A stretch of DNA of 64,000 bases from a phage, in NCBI GenBank assembly GCA_012557565.1, contig GCA_012557565.1_3926.1, one strand, 5' to 3'. The notes under the pieces were generated by a model. That model was given only the letters and a program-made list of their open reading frames with translations, was not told where the DNA came from and ran no database searches. Position numbers and translations under genes: made by a program. Below are positions 26,667-30,079 of this stretch, piece after piece. How positions within the stretch are numbered: the first letter of the stretch is position 1; every line of letters begins with the position of its first letter.

Positions 26667-26752
26667 AATTATAATAAGTATTTCAAAATGATGTTTGAGA
26701 GGGCTTTTTAGCCCCTCCCTTAAAGAGTTCTTACGAGTATTCTTTAAAGGAG

Positions 26753-26826
26753 CAGAAGACCAAATACAGCAAGCAATTTTAATATTTCAAGCCAATTTAA
26801 TTTGAAAAATTTAAAACTTGGTCTGG
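26753..26826 (+). repeat. conserved hairpin element, copy 3
   Basis: GCAGAAGACCAAATACAGCAAGCA ... TTGGTCTGG. Confidence 0.55.
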
Positions 26827-26839
26827 TTCCAACAATTTT

Positions 26840-26966
26840 ACAGAAGACCGTTTACAGCAAACAATAAACAATCTATTTCTCTTATAAAGAAAAGGCGAAG
26901 GTTCGAATCCTTCACACGTTACGGCGTGTTGGTGTAATGGAAGCACTTAAGATAAATACGGTCTGG
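26840..26966 (+). repeat. conserved hairpin element, copy 4, with inserted tRNA-like T-arm segment
   Basis: ACAGAAGACCGTTTACAGCAAACA ... ACGGTCTGG; loop contains GAAGG-TTCGAAT-CCTTC followed by ACACG-TTACGG-CGTGT hairpin. Confidence 0.5.
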
Positions 26967-26973
26967 TAATCCT

Positions 26974-27106
26974 CTTTGCAGTGACTTATGGAGCTAATAT
27001 GTCGTCCCATGAGTGCCGATGAGTTTCTTGAGCATGATTCTAGATTAGCTTACTAAGAGACAACTCTACAAACCCTTTAGCAAGGTTTGCGTAGGTTACT
27101 GCAAAG
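26974..27106 (+). ncRNA. candidate structured non-coding RNA (133 nt) closed by a 12-bp terminal helix
   Basis: CTTTGCAGTGAC (26974-26985) pairs with GTTACTGCAAAG (27095-27106, one G-U); internal hairpins; ends 10 nt before tRNA-Lys. Confidence 0.35.
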
Positions 27107-27116
27107 ATGATTTAAT

Positions 27117-27192
27117 GGAAGTGTAGCAGAATGGTGATGCGGCAGACTTTTAATCTGACAGGCGACGGGTTCGAATCCCTCCACTTCTACCA
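27117..27192 (+). tRNA. tRNA-Lys (anticodon TTT)
   Basis: Acceptor GGAAGTG/CACTTCT, anticodon loop CTTTTAA, T-loop TTCGAAT; T-stem imperfect. Confidence 0.55.
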
Positions 27193-27273
27193 AATTCGCC
27201 CCTTAACTGAAGAACACATGCGCGGCTGGAAACACCCACTCAATCAGTTCTCTACAAAGGGGCAACTTATAAT

Positions 27274-27350
27274 GGTTCAGTCGCAGATAAGGTAATGCAA
27301 GGGTTTCATAAGCCCTATGAATGTGGGTTCGATTCCCACCTGAACCTCCA
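27274..27350 (+). tRNA. tRNA-Met or tRNA-Ile2 (anticodon CAT)
   Basis: Perfect acceptor GGTTCAG/CTGAACC, T-arm GTGGG-TTCGATT-CCCAC, anticodon loop TTCATAA. Confidence 0.65.
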
Positions 27351-27352
27351 AT

Positions 27353-27427
27353 TGTGGGTTAGCATAAATGGTAATGCAAACGGCTGATAACCGTTAGAAG
27401 AGGGTTCGATACCCTCACCTACAACCA
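27353..27427 (+). tRNA. tRNA-Ile (anticodon GAT)
   Basis: Acceptor TGTGGGT/ACCTACA, anticodon stem AACGG/CCGTT, loop CTGATAA. Confidence 0.65.
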
Positions 27428-27442
27428 ATTTCAATAAAGTTG

Positions 27443-27471
27443 TTGACATTCAGATGTGACCACTTTATAGT
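27443..27471 (+). promoter_or_regulatory. sigma70-like promoter inside tRNA cluster
   Basis: TTGACA (27443-27448), 17-nt spacer, TATAGT (27466-27471). Confidence 0.5.
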
Positions 27472-27704
27472 TACCTTAGTTTTCGTTAGCGTAGCGTCTA
27501 TTTTGCAAACTTAAAAATAAATGCAAACGATAATGTTTTTCTGGCAGTAGCTTAATAGGCTAAACACCAGTGAGGTCTTCCAATCCCTCATCAAAGAATT
27601 TGGCGTACTAGCCCACGGTATGATTAATAAAGTGGGCAACATTCTAAAGGGTATCCCTTATGGGGCTTGGCTTAAATGCAATGAGTACCCTTTAAAATGT
27701 TAAT

Positions 27705-27781
27705 GCACCCTTAGTTCAACTGGACAGAGCAAATGACTTCTAATCATTGAGTTACAGGTTCGAATCCTGTAGGGTGTGCCA
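27705..27781 (+). tRNA. tRNA-Arg (anticodon TCT)
   Basis: Acceptor GCACCCT/AGGGTGT, anticodon stem AATGA/TCATT, loop CTTCTAA. Confidence 0.65.
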
Positions 27782-27946
27782 AATAGTTAGCAGATTGCTT
27801 AGACGACCTTAACGGGTCTCCGTGTTGATTCAGTTGAGTCAACTTCATAAGGAGGTGGTCTGTATCTCATGTTTCCAGAGCATGTAAAATATTCTGAGAA
27901 GAGGCTTGACAGTGTTGTGATAATACGGTAAGCTTCGAATTATAGT

Positions 27947-28029
27947 ATGGGACGATGTTAAGACACTAAGGCATGTGCGTAAGCCTCCAAAACTTACTCA
28001 AAGGGGTTCGAATCCTCCGTCCCATGCCA
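27947..28029 (+). tRNA. tRNA-like gene, identity undetermined (no canonical anticodon arm found by hand)
   Basis: Perfect acceptor ATGGGAC/GTCCCAT, T-loop TTCGAAT and encoded CCA, but no 5-bp/7-nt anticodon arm recognisable. Confidence 0.35.
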
Positions 28030-28042
28030 AAGTCTTATTAGG

Positions 28043-28130
28043 GGTAGGTAGCGGCTGATGGAAGCCAAATAGTCTTGAAAACTATTGCCATTGTAGAGAT
28101 ACGGTGAGGGTTCGACTCCTTTATCTACCG
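28043..28130 (+). tRNA. tRNA-Ser (anticodon TGA), long variable arm, CCA not encoded
   Basis: Anticodon stem ATAGT/ACTAT, loop CTTGAAA, 20-nt variable region. Confidence 0.55.
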
Positions 28131-28385
28131 CCTAATAAGATTTAAAGCTGAGACTATTTGTTCGAGCAAGTGTTTCAGGTTTCCTCTTCGTGTATTGGCA
28201 TACACGGCACTGGTAAAGCACCTAGTAGGTGTCACGGAGAAGAGATAGTATCAAGCTCTCCAAAGGTTCTAGTCACCGGATTAAACAAGACTATGCAAAG
28301 GCCAATAGGTCTTTTTAGAGAATTGTTAAGGCATTTGATACCATTGTTGCTTTGGCGTCTTAGCAGTTCTCTACAAAGATTTAAT

Positions 28386-28627: not shown

Positions 28628-28633
28628 ATTAGT

Positions 28634-28708
28634 GCATCCATAGTTTAAATGGGAAAATTACAGTCTTCCAAACTGAGGTTGAGGGTTCGATTCCCTCTGG
28701 ATGCTCCA
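28634..28708 (+). tRNA. tRNA-Gly (anticodon TCC)
   Basis: Perfect acceptor GCATCCA/TGGATGC, T-arm GAGGG-TTCGATT-CCCTC, anticodon loop CTTCCAA. Confidence 0.65.
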
Positions 28709-28714
28709 AACAAT

Positions 28715-28790
28715 GCTCTTATCGTATAATTGGCTATTACGGTTGCCTTGTAAGCAACTTATCAGGGTTCGAATCCTTGTGGGAGCACCA
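28715..28790 (+). tRNA. tRNA-Thr (anticodon TGT)
   Basis: Anticodon stem GTTGC/GCAAC, loop CTTGTAA; acceptor GCTCTTA/TGGGAGC. Confidence 0.65.
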
Positions 28791-28885
28791 ATTTTGAGGT
28801 CAAGTGAAAGACCGCTTGAGTCAACTGAAGACCGTAACAAATTCCACGTAGTTGAGTTAGCGGCACAGCTTCAGACCTCTTCAAA

Positions 28886-28960
28886 GCTCGCTTAGTTTAT
28901 ATGGTAAAGCCCCATCCTTACAAGTTGGTGAAGAAGGTTCAAGTCCTTCAGCGAGTACCA
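28886..28960 (+). tRNA. tRNA-Val (anticodon TAC)
   Basis: Acceptor GCTCGCT/AGCGAGT, T-arm GAAGG-TTCAAGT-CCTTC, anticodon loop CTTACAA. Confidence 0.6.
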
Positions 28961-28961
28961 A

Positions 28962-29039
28962 GTTCCAGTATCCCAATTGGCAGAGGATGCAAGCTCAAAC
29001 CTTGTATTAGTGACGGTTCGAATCCGTCTTGGAACACCA
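28962..29039 (+). tRNA. tRNA with Leu anticodon CAA but short variable arm
   Basis: Acceptor GTTCCAG/TTGGAAC, anticodon loop CTCAAAC, T-arm GACGG-TTCGAAT-CCGTC, discriminator A. Confidence 0.5.
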
Positions 29040-29216
29040 AATTAGGAGATTCCTATGAAGCCTTATGGTAGACATGGTAAAGTTGAAATTGCAAGTTGTG
29101 GTTGCTGTGCTTCTCACGATGGTGAAGAAGATTACTACAAGTGGCGTACAGACCATCGTAGACGCTTTCTCAGAAGAGATAAGAAGAAAGCTAGACAGGA
29201 ATCTCGAAAGAATATT

Positions 29217-29293
29217 GCAGAATTAGTTCAAACGGATAGAGCAGCAACCTACGAAGTTGTTTGTTAGGGGTTCGAATCCCTTATTCTGCACCA
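29217..29293 (+). tRNA. tRNA-Arg (anticodon ACG)
   Basis: Perfect acceptor GCAGAAT/ATTCTGC, anticodon stem GCAAC/GTTGT, loop CTACGAA; overlaps the 3' part of track ORF 29055-29267. Confidence 0.65.
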
Positions 29294-29311
29294 ATTTTAG
29301 AAGGTAATTAT

Positions 29312-29539
29312 ATGCGTAAACTCATTATTGAAAGGCATAAAGATGCTGACAAGATTGAAACAACACAAGTTGGGGACACTGACTTCATTCTTGTAGGTTG
29401 GAAATGTGACCCAATAGCAGTTATGAAGGTTGTTCATGGTCTTGCAGGAATTGAATTTAATCAAATCATATTTGAAACGCTATTACCAGAAAATCAGGAT
29501 ACGTGTAATAACGCATATGTTCTGACAAGAGTTCGTTAG
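29312..29539 (+). CDS. hypothetical small protein, paralogue A (start trimmed from track 29261)
   Basis: ATG at 29312 with SD AAGG upstream; many positions shared with paralogue B (FETLLPEN.DTCNNAY.LTRV). Confidence 0.45.
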   Translation: MRKLIIERHKDADKIETTQVGDTDFILVGWKCDPIAVMKVVHGLAGIEFNQIIFETLLPENQDTCNNAYVLTRVR

Positions 29540-29563
29540 GGGTTCGAATCCCTTATTCTGCAC
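29536..29563 (+). pseudogene. duplicated 3' fragment of tRNA-Arg(ACG) (T-arm plus acceptor 3' strand)
   Basis: TTAGGGGTTCGAATCCCTTATTCTGCAC identical to the 3' end of tRNA 29217-29293; no 5' half. Confidence 0.6.
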
Positions 29564-29583
29564 AAAATTTAAAAGGGTAACTT

Positions 29584-29811
29584 ATGTTTAAACTCATAGT
29601 TGAAAAACACCCAGAAGATGACAAGCTTGAAACAGGGAGATTTGGAGATACTTTCTTTATCAGAGTTGGCTGGAAAGCTGACCCATTAGAAGTTAGAAAG
29701 ATTGTCTACAACTTTGCTGGTTTGGAATTAAAGCAAGTCATCTTTGAAACAATGTTGCCAGAAAATAAAGATACATGCAATAACGCATATATTCTTACAA
29801 GAGTTAGTTAG
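29584..29811 (+). CDS. hypothetical small protein, paralogue B
   Basis: 75-aa ORF with SD AAGGG upstream; tandem to paralogue A. Confidence 0.45.
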   Translation: MFKLIVEKHPEDDKLETGRFGDTFFIRVGWKADPLEVRKIVYNFAGLELKQVIFETMLPENKDTCNNAYILTRVS

Positions 29812-29885
29812 GGGATTAGTTTACAAGGTTAAAACCTCGGTCTTTGAAATCGAAGAAGTTGGTTCAATTCCAACATCCCCCGCCA
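29810..29885 (+). tRNA. tRNA-Gln (anticodon TTG)
   Basis: Acceptor AGGGGAT/ATCCCCC, D-stem GTTT/AAAC, anticodon loop CTTTGAA, T-arm GTTGG-TTCAATT-CCAAC. Confidence 0.6.
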
Positions 29886-29887
29886 AT

Positions 29888-29966
29888 GCTCCATTACTCC
29901 AATTGGCAGAGAGGCCAGACTTAAAATCTGTGTTATGTATCGGTTCGAATCCGATATGGAGTACCA
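29888..29966 (+). tRNA. tRNA with Leu anticodon TAA but short variable arm
   Basis: Acceptor GCTCCAT/ATGGAGT, anticodon loop CTTAAAA, T-arm ATCGG-TTCGAAT-CCGAT, discriminator A. Confidence 0.5.
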
Positions 29967-29972
29967 AATATT

Positions 29973-30048
29973 AGCAGTGTAGCATAACTGGCAATGCTCC
30001 AGCCTCTGAAGCTGAAAGATTAAGGTTCAAATCCTTACGCTGCTGCCA
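29973..30048 (+). tRNA. tRNA-Gln (anticodon CTG)
   Basis: Acceptor AGCAGTG/CGCTGCT, anticodon loop CTCTGAA, T-arm TAAGG-TTCAAAT-CCTTA. Confidence 0.6.
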
Positions 30049-30079
30049 CTTCTAAGGGTTCTTACGAGAGTCCTTAAAT

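What the first reader, a model, noticed from the sequence alone, without database searches (positions are those of the whole stretch)
26718..30076. Two hairpins with different stems but the same 14-nt loop GTTCTTACGAG(T/A)(A/G)T
At 26718-26750 and 30053-30076 the stems differ (TTAAAGA/TCTTTAA versus TAAGG/CCTTA) while the loop is nearly identical, and both lie just 3' of a tRNA or terminator-like hairpin in the cluster. Conservation of loop rather than stem suggests sequence-specific recognition of the loop, for example by a nuclease or RNA-binding protein.
Basis: seen in the sequence. Interest (0 to 1): 0.4.

Follow-up and report, generated by a model that had tools for sequence, protein, structure and literature searches.

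The report
Conserved junction hairpins in phage tRNA cluster
Two copies of a small conserved RNA hairpin sit between genes in the tRNA cluster of a FelixO1-like phage; the element is real and specific to this phage lineage and is probably a protein-recognised signal in the precursor transcript, but what reads it is unknown.

Summary
Both hairpins exist as described (26720-26747 and 30053-30076, + strand) in the 25-tRNA cluster of an Ounavirinae (Mooglevirus/FelixO1-like) phage. They are paralogous copies of one element, kept in every related genome examined. The description needs two corrections. First, the "14-nt loop" pairs with itself (GUUCU/AGAGU around a UACG tetraloop), giving one 10-12 bp helix, or about 14-16 bp counting flanks. 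Second, the stems are homologous variants that differ by compensatory changes. The apical sequence is nearly invariant (pairwise identity 0.97-0.99, against 0.68-0.81 for ordinary spacers), while the outer stem covaries. That supports sequence-specific recognition.

A third, diverged paralog lies at 27637-27702. Erwinia phage M7 carries the exact 14-mer at that orthologous site. All copies sit at junctions between structured RNAs.

A Ro60-like protein is encoded just upstream and Y-RNA-like units abut hairpin 1. However, M7 has the hairpin without the Ro60 gene, and Yersinia phage P778 has the gene without the hairpin, so Ro60 is unlikely to be the obligatory partner.

Best guess, at low confidence: a processing or recognition signal in the precursor transcript, read by a host or core-phage factor. 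No Rfam family matches. Interest is modest.

The parts
26720..26747 (+). Hairpin 1 (site 1). Outer stem 26720-26726 / 26741-26747. Invariant core GTTCTTACGAGTAT at 26727-26740, which folds as GUUCU-UACG-AGUAU with one U-U mismatch. The helix can extend to 26715-26752 (CUCC/GGAG).
   Evidence: Sequence. Fold -10 kcal/mol. Covariance-model hit at 26718-26749, 52.8 bits. Core pairwise identity 0.992 over 33 distinct orthologs. Outer closing pair varies A-U / G.U / G-C.
30053..30076 (+). Hairpin 2 (site 2), filling the tRNA-Gln(CUG)-tRNA-His spacer. Outer stem 30053-30057 / 30072-30076. Core GTTCTTACGAGAGT at 30058-30071, which folds as a 10-bp helix with a UACG loop.
   Evidence: Sequence. Fold -8 kcal/mol. 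Model hit at 30049-30080, 54.2 bits. Core pairwise identity 0.967 over 24 orthologs. G1-to-A and G13-to-A substitutions turn G.U pairs into A-U pairs. Phage HY02 extends the outer stem to 9 perfect pairs.
26698..26719 (+). GC-rich hairpin A (GAGAGGGC-UUUUU-AGCCCCUC) immediately 5' of hairpin 1. It is conserved but is not an intrinsic terminator.
   Evidence: Fold (third sequence). Pairwise identity 0.955. No terminator call.
27637..27702 (+). Third paralogous junction hairpin (site 3), at the 3' end of the tag RNA and just 5' of tRNA-Arg(UCU). Its flanks and outer stem (AAAGGGTA 27646-27653 / TACCCTTT 27686-27693) are homologous to those of hairpin 2, but in this lineage the apex is a branched 38 nt.
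   Evidence: Fold -31 kcal/mol with the upstream hairpin, z -3.4. Alignment with M7, VpaE1 and SP116. The Felixounavirus form is a perfect 16-bp hairpin whose 3' half GAGAGUC is identical to the motif; M7 has the canonical 14-mer here. Model R1 scores the Felixounavirus form 16-18 bits.
29973..30156 (+). Context, not part of the element: tRNA-Gln(CUG) 29973-30048 and tRNA-His 30080-30156, which flank hairpin 2.
   Evidence: ARAGORN. Rfam tRNA hits.
26753..26827 (+). Context, not part of the element: Y-RNA-like repeat unit 3, which starts 6 nt after hairpin 1.
   Evidence: Repeat family D11. Alignment. Fold.

Best explanation
What it is (well supported). The two sites are paralogous copies of one lineage-specific RNA stem-loop of FelixO1-like (Ounavirinae) phages. 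They are transcribed on the sense strand as part of the polycistronic tRNA/ncRNA precursor. The element is a helix of 10-12 bp, or about 14-16 bp counting flanking pairs, with a pyrimidine-rich 5' strand, a purine-rich 3' strand and a UACG tetraloop. The lower half is constrained only to pair. The upper five pairs plus the loop (GUUCU-UACG-AGWRU) are constrained in sequence. A third, diverged paralog exists at 27637-27702.

How it most likely works (inferred, not shown). Each copy sits exactly at a junction between one finished structured RNA and the next:
- tRNA-Gln | tRNA-His;
- tRNA-Asp + hairpin A | Y-RNA-like unit;
- tag RNA | tRNA-Arg, or tRNA-Leu in Erwinia phage M7.
I therefore read it as a punctuation signal in the precursor: a short double-stranded handle recognised by a protein that cuts or protects the transcript there, separating neighbouring RNAs. 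A host helix-specific enzyme such as RNase III, or another factor shared by Enterobacterales hosts or by all Ounavirinae, is the most plausible reader. The invariant apex would supply the sequence-specific contact.
For: Transcription. All 25 tRNAs are on the + strand, with strong sigma70-like promoters at about 25.8-25.9 kb and 27443, and no terminator near the hairpins.

Structure. The continuous-helix fold is the predicted minimum-energy structure for every copy. Seven outer pairs show changes on both sides. All inner-pair substitutions keep pairing (G.U to A-U; U-A to U.G). 87.5% of cells are paired, against 39-64% when the partners are slid. The paralog at site 3 in Felixounaviruses is a perfect 16-bp hairpin.

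Selection. Core identity is 0.97-0.99, against 0.68-0.81 for neighbouring spacers. The same 14-mer sits in a different outer stem in the genus Kolesnikvirus.

Lineage specificity. In IMG/VR the motif with a stem is found only in Ounavirinae-size contigs, at most twice per contig. The roughly 90 other 14-mer matches lack stems.

Junction position holds for all three sites and for M7.

Independence from the local Ro60-like gene and from the tag RNA points to a host or core-phage reader.
Against: No RNA ends, cleavage or binding data exist for these sites.

Most tRNA junctions in the same cluster are 1-8 nt long and need no hairpin, so general tRNA processing does not require the element.

E. coli RNase III is not known to need a specific apical sequence, and helices of 10-16 bp with G.U pairs and a mismatch are at the short end for it (my own knowledge). 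The invariant apex is therefore not explained by that enzyme.

The stabilities are modest (-8 to -10 kcal/mol; z -1.7 to -2.2).

At site 3 the apex has drifted or been replaced while the junction remains. Yet every genome keeps at least one canonical copy. That pattern fits a per-genome, trans-acting role at least as well as a local processing role.
Confidence: 0.4

Rival explanations
1. Ro60 docking module. The hairpins are Y-RNA-like binding sites for the phage's own Ro60-like protein (ORF 24358-25773). They would present a CGA-containing motif as Y RNAs do, and so recruit the protein to the tRNA/ncRNA precursor.
For: The upstream ORF is Ro60-like: an AlphaFold model with pLDDT 85 has all twelve top PDB matches to Ro60, Rsr or phage phiLo Ro60. 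The same gene in the Felixounavirus Bas63 (gp130) counters the ppl defence, and the authors suspected Y RNAs among the tRNA genes (PMC11482910). Thermus phage Ro60 binds two hairpin RNAs defined by a CGAA motif (PMC12135203). The bacterial YrlA motif is GNCGAAN0-1G (PMC4201824). The hairpin core contains an invariant CGAG, and hairpin 1 abuts Y-RNA-like units.
Against: The two do not co-occur. Erwinia phage M7 has no Ro60-like gene anywhere in its genome (tblastn E > 2) yet keeps the exact 14-mer with a compensated stem. Yersinia phage P778 has the Ro60-like gene (51% identity) but no hairpin in its whole tRNA cluster. The motif is CGAG, not CGAA, and lacks the leading G. In the predicted fold it is split between the tetraloop and the stem. 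The four AGAAGACC...UUACAGCAAAC bulged-stem units track the Ro60-like gene better.
Confidence: 0.15
2. Free-standing small RNA or decoy. After excision from the precursor the hairpin acts in trans, for example by titrating a host RNA-binding protein or nuclease. One canonical copy per genome would then be enough, wherever it lies.
For: Every genome examined keeps at least one canonical apex while other paralogous sites drift. M7 has its only copy at site 3, whereas Felixounaviruses and Moogleviruses have canonical copies at sites 1 and 2 and a diverged site 3. Sequence invariance of a helix apex is typical of a protein-binding aptamer-like element (inference).
Against: There is no evidence that the hairpin accumulates as a separate RNA. 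It is short and only moderately stable. No candidate target was found. The consistent junction position would be unexplained.
Confidence: 0.15
3. Purely structural spacer. The hairpin only insulates the folding of neighbouring RNAs. Its sequence constancy would come from gene conversion between copies, or from the narrow set of sequences that give this pyrimidine/purine helix.
For: Site 3 shows that a different apex, or a 16-bp perfect helix, is tolerated at a junction. The paralogs share flanks, so exchange between copies is conceivable.
Against: Sites 1 and 2 keep their own diagnostic differences (GAGTAT versus GAGAGT) in all lineages, which argues against ongoing homogenisation. The 14-mer is identical between genera whose surrounding sequence is barely alignable. 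Pairing alone would allow many sequences, and the outer stem does vary.
Confidence: 0.15
4. boxA-like antitermination site. GUUCUUAC resembles the NusB/NusE-binding boxA of phage lambda nutR (GCUCUUAC; recalled from memory). It would keep RNA polymerase resistant to Rho across a long untranslated operon.
For: Seven of eight bases are identical to lambda nutR boxA (from memory, not tested). Each copy follows a stable helix, as boxA follows or precedes boxB. A host factor would fit the independence from phage Ro60.
Against: The motif is sequestered in a helix supported by covariation. GGTTCTTA is not enriched in the window (4 observed, 2.4 expected). The copy just after promoter P2 is not conserved in relatives. 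The sites lie about 0.8 and 2.6 kb from the promoters.
Confidence: 0.04
5. DNA-level element, such as a protein-binding site, a recombination site or a homing-endonuclease target, rather than an RNA structure.
For: There are two direct repeats in a region where relatives carry HNH endonuclease insertions.
Against: Compensatory changes preserve pairing, and the inner helix relies on G.U pairs that exist only on the transcribed strand. The minus-strand fold has an internal loop instead. In a dimeric operator the arms would be conserved and the centre free, which is the opposite of what is seen.
Confidence: 0.04

Closest known systems
RNase III processing hairpins in phage polycistronic transcripts (T7 early mRNA sites such as R1.1; an RNase III site in the T4 tRNA cluster). 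Recalled from my own knowledge, not from a tool.
   Same: Short double-stranded hairpins placed between functional units of a long phage transcript and read by a host enzyme. The helical length is roughly 1-1.5 turns.
   Different: Known sites are usually longer, often with an internal loop, and are not defined by an invariant apical sequence. Cleavage at the present sites is untested.
Y-RNA-like hairpins bound by phage or bacterial Ro60 (Yrl1/Yrl2 of Thermus phage phiLo; YrlA)
   Same: A few copies of a hairpin carrying a short conserved CGA-type motif, encoded next to a phage Ro60 gene and near tRNA-like RNA (PMC12135203; PMC4201824).
   Different: The motif is CGAG rather than CGAA or GNCGAA. 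There is no terminal stem with a large internal loop. Presence does not track the Ro60 gene. Other units in the cluster fit the Y-RNA layout better.
Lambda nut sites (boxA + boxB). From my own knowledge.
   Same: Two copies per genome of a small RNA signal whose sequence is conserved between copies, acting in cis on a long transcript.
   Different: The boxB loop is a GNRA-like pentaloop read by the N protein. Here the alternative GAGA-loop fold fails in half of the sequences, and no N-like factor is known.
UNCG-tetraloop hairpins (the C(UUCG)G hairpins common in T4 intercistronic regions). From my own knowledge.
   Same: The 4-nt loop UACG fits UNCG, and a natural variant UGCG also fits.
   Different: The closing pair is U-A, not C-G, so the extra-stable class is not met. 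One lineage has CACG.

Membership tests
Y RNA / YrlA Ro60-binding module | Encoded next to a Ro60 (TROVE + vWA) gene | tested here: met
   ORF 24358-25773 is Ro60-like by fold. Hairpin 1 lies about 950 nt downstream.
Y RNA / YrlA Ro60-binding module | Conserved GNCGAAN0-1G / CGAA (vertebrate GGUCCGA) motif | tested here: not met
   The core reads UACGAGAG or UACGAGUA. CGAG is invariant, but the fourth base is G and the leading G is absent (motif from PMC4201824 and PMC12135203).
Y RNA / YrlA Ro60-binding module | A stem formed by the 5' and 3' ends, enclosing a large internal loop or a tRNA-like domain | tested here: not met
   The element is a simple hairpin with a 4-nt loop. That architecture is instead shown by the neighbouring AGAAGACC units.
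Y RNA / YrlA Ro60-binding module | Co-occurrence with the Ro60 gene across genomes | tested here: not met
   M7 has the hairpin but no Ro60-like gene. Yersinia P778 has the Ro60-like gene but no hairpin.
Y RNA / YrlA Ro60-binding module | Physical binding to Ro60 | not testable with these tools
   Needs gel shift, RIP or CLIP.
Intrinsic (Rho-independent) terminator | GC-rich stem followed by a U tract | tested here: not met
   The stems are AU-rich and are followed by AAAGGAG or AAAUG. They are not called by the scan.
Extra-stable C(UNCG)G tetraloop hairpin | UNCG loop closed by a C-G pair | tested here: not met
   The loop UACG (with variants UGCG and CACG) is closed by U-A.
Sarcin-ricin-loop / GNRA (C-GAGA-G) mimic | GAGA tetraloop closed by C-G, plus the bulged-G motif | tested here: not met
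   The closing pair forms in only 6 of 12 distinct sequences. All site 1 copies read GAGU-A. The alternative fold is worth -2.1 against -8.0 kcal/mol. The bulged-G positions do not match (sequence inspection against the SRL recalled from memory).
RNase III substrate | Double-stranded helix of about one turn or more; staggered cleavage leaving 2-nt 3' overhangs | tested here: inconclusive
   Helix length is 10-12 bp, or 14-16 bp with flanks, and 16 perfect pairs at site 3 of Felixounaviruses. Cleavage cannot be tested with these tools.
boxA (NusB/NusE site) | Single-stranded GCUCUU(U)A near the start of the transcript | tested here: not met
   The sequence is GUUCUUA, inside a covarying helix, 0.8-2.6 kb from the promoters. 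A promoter-proximal GGTTCTTA is not conserved.
Any curated RNA family (Rfam 15), tRNA or tmRNA | A covariance-model match | tested here: not met
   No Rfam match overlaps hairpin 2 at E <= 1. At hairpin 1, relaxing the threshold to E <= 10 yields only a weak chance-level overlap (AfaR sRNA, 26709-26820, 14.2 bits against a gathering score of 100, E 5.5). ARAGORN calls nothing at either hairpin.

The most novel reading that the evidence does not exclude
The hairpin is a sequence-specific protein-binding RNA that acts in its own right. Each FelixO1-like genome must keep at least one canonical copy. It would work together with the neighbouring non-coding RNA set (four Y-RNA-like bulged-stem units, one enclosing a circularly permuted tRNA-like domain, and a tmRNA-like tag RNA) and the Ro60-like anti-defence protein, as part of a phage RNA-based system for manipulating host RNA decay or countering defence.
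Probability: 0.12. Interest if true: 0.7.

Novelty: new member of a known kind. Interest (0 to 1): 0.3.

Why it matters
FelixO1-like phages are widely used in typing, biocontrol and therapy, and their tRNA cluster is usually annotated as tRNAs separated by empty spacers. This work shows that the spacers hold conserved, structured RNAs. The hairpin family studied here is one of them, and it is the kind of element that end-mapping or a pull-down could assign to a reader quickly.

If it is a processing signal, it explains how a mixed tRNA/ncRNA precursor is cut where RNase P alone cannot do the job. If it binds a factor in trans, it adds an RNA component to the phage-host conflict already implied by the adjacent Ro60-like counter-defence gene. 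On its own, however, it is a small lineage-specific motif of unknown function.

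Tried and rejected
1. GNRA / sarcin-ricin-loop mimic. Site 2 contains UACGAGAG, the same 8 nt as in the 23S SRL. The C-GAGA-G fold pairs in only 6 of 12 sequences and is 6 kcal/mol worse. Rejected.

2. Intrinsic terminator or sigma70 promoter. There is no U tract, the scans make no call, and the conservation pattern is the reverse of a promoter's. Rejected.

3. boxA-like element. GGTTCTTA is not enriched, and the promoter-proximal copy is not conserved. Kept only as a 4% rival.

4. T-arm or anticodon-arm mimic, or a decayed tRNA. The hairpin 2 stem TAAGG/CCTTA equals the T-stem of the adjacent tRNA-Gln, and CUUACGA resembles a tRNA-Val anticodon loop. But the loop length and register do not fit, and neither Rfam nor ARAGORN gives a hit. 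Rejected.

5. Link to the tag RNA. Vi01-like and Klebsiella phages carry the tag RNA without the hairpin. Rejected.

6. Wider distribution. A scan of IMG/VR for the bare 14-mer gave over 100 loci, but outside Ounavirinae they lack stems and tRNA context, so they are chance matches.

7. More diversity at the M7-type site. The Kolesnikvirus records are at least 99% identical to each other there, so they add no information.

8. Single-sequence structure prediction of the upstream ORF failed (pLDDT 40). It was repeated with a 34-sequence alignment.

Full report
Setting. The window comes from an Ounavirinae phage. The 5.5-kb region around the finding is 96% identical to Citrobacter phage BSwM KMM4 (Mooglevirus) and matches 363 FelixO1-like records. 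It holds 25 tRNA genes at 25939-31167, all on the + strand. Strong sigma70-like promoters lie at about 25792, 25882 and 27443, and there is no canonical terminator near the finding.

Observation. Hairpin 1 is ttaaaga-GTTCTTACGAGTAT-tctttaa (26720-26747) and hairpin 2 is taagg-GTTCTTACGAGAGT-cctta (30053-30076). The exact 11-mer occurs only at these two positions in 64 kb. The + strand has 92 hairpins with a stem of at least 5 bp and a 14-nt loop, about as many as shuffled sequence (mean 84). Only one pair shares an 11-nt loop prefix, and 1 of 200 shuffles reproduces such a pair.

Two parts of the description do not hold. First, the 14 nt fold on themselves: GUUCU pairs with AGAGU (AGUAU at site 1, with one U-U mismatch) around a UACG loop. 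This gives one continuous helix. Second, the stems are homologous. Felixounaviruses have TTAAAGG/CCTTTAA at site 1, close to TAAGG/CCTTA at site 2. The window's TTAAAGA/TCTTTAA is the same stem after a compensated G-C to A-U change, and VpaE1 shows the G.U intermediate.

Comparative evidence for the structure. I collected 12 distinct versions of the element from about 45 loci and counted pairs on an in-register alignment. Overall 87.5% of cells pair, against 39-64% when the 3' partners are slid. Seven outer pairs change on both sides (UA/AU, GC/AU, GC/GU/AU). The inner pairs change on one side only but stay paired (G.U to A-U at pair 10:23; U-A/U.G at 11:22). The exception is the site 1 U-U mismatch, and the two innermost pairs never vary. 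The loop varies slightly (UACG, UGCG, CACG). An alternative fold with a GAGA tetraloop closed by C-G, which would resemble the sarcin-ricin loop, pairs in only half of the sequences and is 6 kcal/mol worse. In phage HY02, two substitutions extend the site 2 outer stem to nine perfect pairs.

Evidence for selection on sequence. Among 33 distinct site 1 orthologs, the core has one variable column and a mean pairwise identity of 0.992. Among 24 site 2 orthologs it is 0.967. The flanking tRNAs score 0.84-0.97 and ordinary spacers 0.68-0.81. Erwinia phage M7 (genus Kolesnikvirus) carries the identical 14-mer GTTCTTACGAGAGT in a different, compensated outer stem (AAAAG/CUUUC). In IMG/VR the motif with its stem is found only in contigs of about 85-94 kb, at most twice each. 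A scan for the bare 14-mer returns over 100 further loci that lack flanking stems and tRNA context, which is the chance background. A covariance model of the element (R1) finds exactly two copies in the window and one in the whole M7 genome. It finds none in the Yersinia P778, Aeromonas, Vi01 or Klebsiella loci. No Rfam family matches.

A third paralog. The M7 copy is not at either of the window's sites. It lies at the 3' end of a promoter-driven non-coding RNA, 10 nt before tRNA-Leu. The orthologous position in the window (27637-27702, before tRNA-Arg) holds a hairpin with homologous flanks and outer stem (UUCUAAAGGGUA...UACCCUUUAAAAUG) but a branched 38-nt apex. Felixounaviruses have a perfect 16-bp hairpin there, AUCUUUAAGGGCUUUC-UAA-GAGAGUCUUUAAAGAU. 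Its 3' half GAGAGUC is identical to the motif, and R1 scores it 16-18 bits. The family therefore has three junction sites.

Three conclusions follow from this. The fully paired paralog supports the helix reading of the "loop". The apex is dispensable at site 3 in most lineages. And every genome retains at least one canonical apex.

Context, and the Ro60 question. The ORF immediately upstream of the cluster (24358-25773; Pfam DUF2828 + DUF7788) is Ro60-like. A model built on 34 homologs (pLDDT 85) has Ro60, Rsr and Thermus phage phiLo Ro60 as its twelve best PDB matches over the full length. The literature supplies three relevant points:
- The same gene in the Felixounavirus Bas63 (gp130) counters the ppl defence, and its authors guessed that some "tRNA genes" are Y RNAs (PMC11482910).
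- phiLo Ro60 binds two hairpin RNAs defined by a CGAA motif (PMC12135203).
- Bacterial YrlA RNAs carry GNCGAAN0-1G 5' of a tRNA-like domain (PMC4201824).

This made a Ro60-docking role for the CGAG-containing hairpins attractive, so I tested it by co-occurrence. M7 has no Ro60-like gene anywhere (tblastn) but keeps the hairpin. Yersinia phage P778 has the gene (51% identity) but no hairpin. By contrast, four repeated units, CAGAAGACC-NN-UUACAGCAAAC...NN-GGUCUGG (26107-26176, 26270-26338, 26753-26827, 26841-26967), fold into a bulged stem enclosing a large loop. Their stem covaries (AA/UU against GU/AC). The fourth unit encloses anticodon-like, T, closed-acceptor and D arms, which is a permuted tRNA-like domain. 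These units are absent from M7, and their UUACAGCAAAC box is present in P778. They are better Y-RNA candidates than the hairpins. Hairpin 1 simply sits between hairpin A and the third unit, inside a stretch of about 170 nt that is as conserved as the tRNAs.

The hairpin is also independent of the tmRNA-like tag RNA. Vi01-like and Klebsiella phages have the tag RNA without the hairpin.

Mechanism. What is shown: a conserved, lineage-specific, sense-strand RNA helix with a sequence-constrained apex, in three paralogous copies, each at a junction between structured RNAs.

I favour a punctuation or processing role (confidence 0.4). The reasons are the junction positions, the common helical length of about 14-16 bp when flanks are counted, and the precedent of RNase III sites in phage polycistronic transcripts (my own knowledge). 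The weaknesses are as follows. Other junctions in the cluster need no hairpin. RNase III does not explain an invariant apex. And the pattern of at least one canonical copy per genome fits a trans-acting RNA about as well. The rivals, with my confidence in each, are:
- Ro60 docking (0.15)
- Trans-acting decoy (0.15)
- Purely structural spacer (0.15)
- boxA-like antitermination (0.04)
- A DNA-level site (0.04)

Verdict. The element is an undescribed member of a familiar class, small conserved stem-loops in phage transcripts. Its interest is modest, and the surrounding non-coding RNAs are arguably more interesting than the hairpins themselves.

Noticed in passing
window 24358-25773 (+): The 471-aa ORF directly upstream of the tRNA cluster (Pfam DUF2828 + DUF7788; annotated 'RNA-binding protein' or 'vWFA protein' in relatives) has a Ro60 (TROVE + vWA) fold. 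It is homologous to the mycobacteriophage 'Ro-like' proteins and to Bas63 gp130, a reported counter to the ppl defence (PMC11482910). The family is widespread in large phages (714 phage records by tblastn).
   Followed up: yes
window 26107-26176, 26270-26338, 26753-26827, 26841-26967 (+): Four repeated units, CAGAAGACC-NN-TTACAGCAAAC...NN-GGTCTGG. Each folds as an outer stem, a 3-nt AGA bulge, a 7-bp stem that covaries (AA/TT against GT/AC) and a large loop. They are candidate Y-RNA-like partners of the Ro60-like protein. They are absent from Erwinia phage M7, which lacks the Ro60-like gene. The TTACAGCAAAC box is present in Yersinia phage P778, which has it.
   Followed up: partly
window 26841-26967 (+): The fourth unit encloses a circularly permuted tRNA-like domain: an anticodon-like arm, a T-arm (26894-26910), a closed 'acceptor' hairpin whose strands covary between phages (ACACGTT/GGCGTGT, ACCCTTC/GAAGGGT, ACTCGGC/GTCGAGT), and a D-arm. 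This resembles the YrlA layout. Rfam scores part of it as a marginal tRNA (26847-26921, 30.9 bits). ARAGORN uses it as the acceptor piece of a 'permuted tmRNA' in phage Moogle.
   Followed up: partly
window 27443-27640 (+): A strong promoter (TTGACA-N17-TATAGT, 27443-27471) drives an RNA carrying a tmRNA-like tag frame, GCAAACGATAATGTTTTTCTGGCAGTAGCTTAATAG = ANDNVFLAVA** (27523-27558). A helix that covaries follows it. The same element is found in Erwinia phage M7 (ANDAQFLAVA), Salmonella phage Vi01 (ANDNTFLAVA) and Klebsiella phage BUCT541 (ANEEMYLAVA). There is no obvious alanine-identity G3.U70 acceptor stem nearby. The Moogle genome note reports an ssrA gene called by ARAGORN (PMC4319497).
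   Followed up: partly
window 27570-27590 versus 26109-26115, 26272-26278, 26755-26761 and 26843-26849: The hairpin loop after the tag frame contains GGUCUUC, which is complementary to the GAAGACC of all four Y-RNA-like units. GGUCUUCC is also conserved in the Vi01 and Klebsiella versions of the tag RNA. A possible RNA-RNA contact, not tested.
   Followed up: no
window 29259-29802 (+): A tandem 272-nt duplication (74% identity) gives two paralogous small ORFs (about 29313-29539 and 29584-29811). The first copy starts with the end of tRNA-Arg(ACG). The second copy starts with an orphan duplicate of that tRNA's T-arm and acceptor 3' end (29535-29566). This looks like the footprint of an insertion or duplication at a tRNA gene.
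   Followed up: no
window about 27907-28032 (+): A promoter-like TTGACA with an A/T-rich upstream element (a third copy of repeat family D19) is followed by a tRNA-like RNA. It has a perfect 7-bp acceptor stem (ATGGGAC/GTCCCAT), a T-arm and GCCA. Its anticodon arm is odd, apparently with a 9-nt loop. Neither ARAGORN nor Rfam calls it.
   Followed up: no
window 30079-30156 (+): As read from the ARAGORN boundaries, tRNA-His has U rather than G at position -1, with C73. The G-1 that bacterial tRNA-His normally encodes is therefore absent. Some related records annotate this gene as a pseudo-tRNA.
   Followed up: no
window 26498-26583 (+): A tRNA-Tyr(GTA)-like gene with a long variable arm is missed by ARAGORN in this window (Rfam 22.8 bits, below threshold) but is annotated as tRNA-Tyr in several relatives. 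It may be decaying in this lineage.
   Followed up: no
L007 (Salmonella phage SP116) about 5290-5320, compared with window 26905-27175: In SP116 the T-arm of the permuted tRNA-like domain is fused to the 3' end of tRNA-Lys(UUU). This deletes about 270 nt, apparently by recombination between T-arms. It shows how plastic this cluster is.
   Followed up: no
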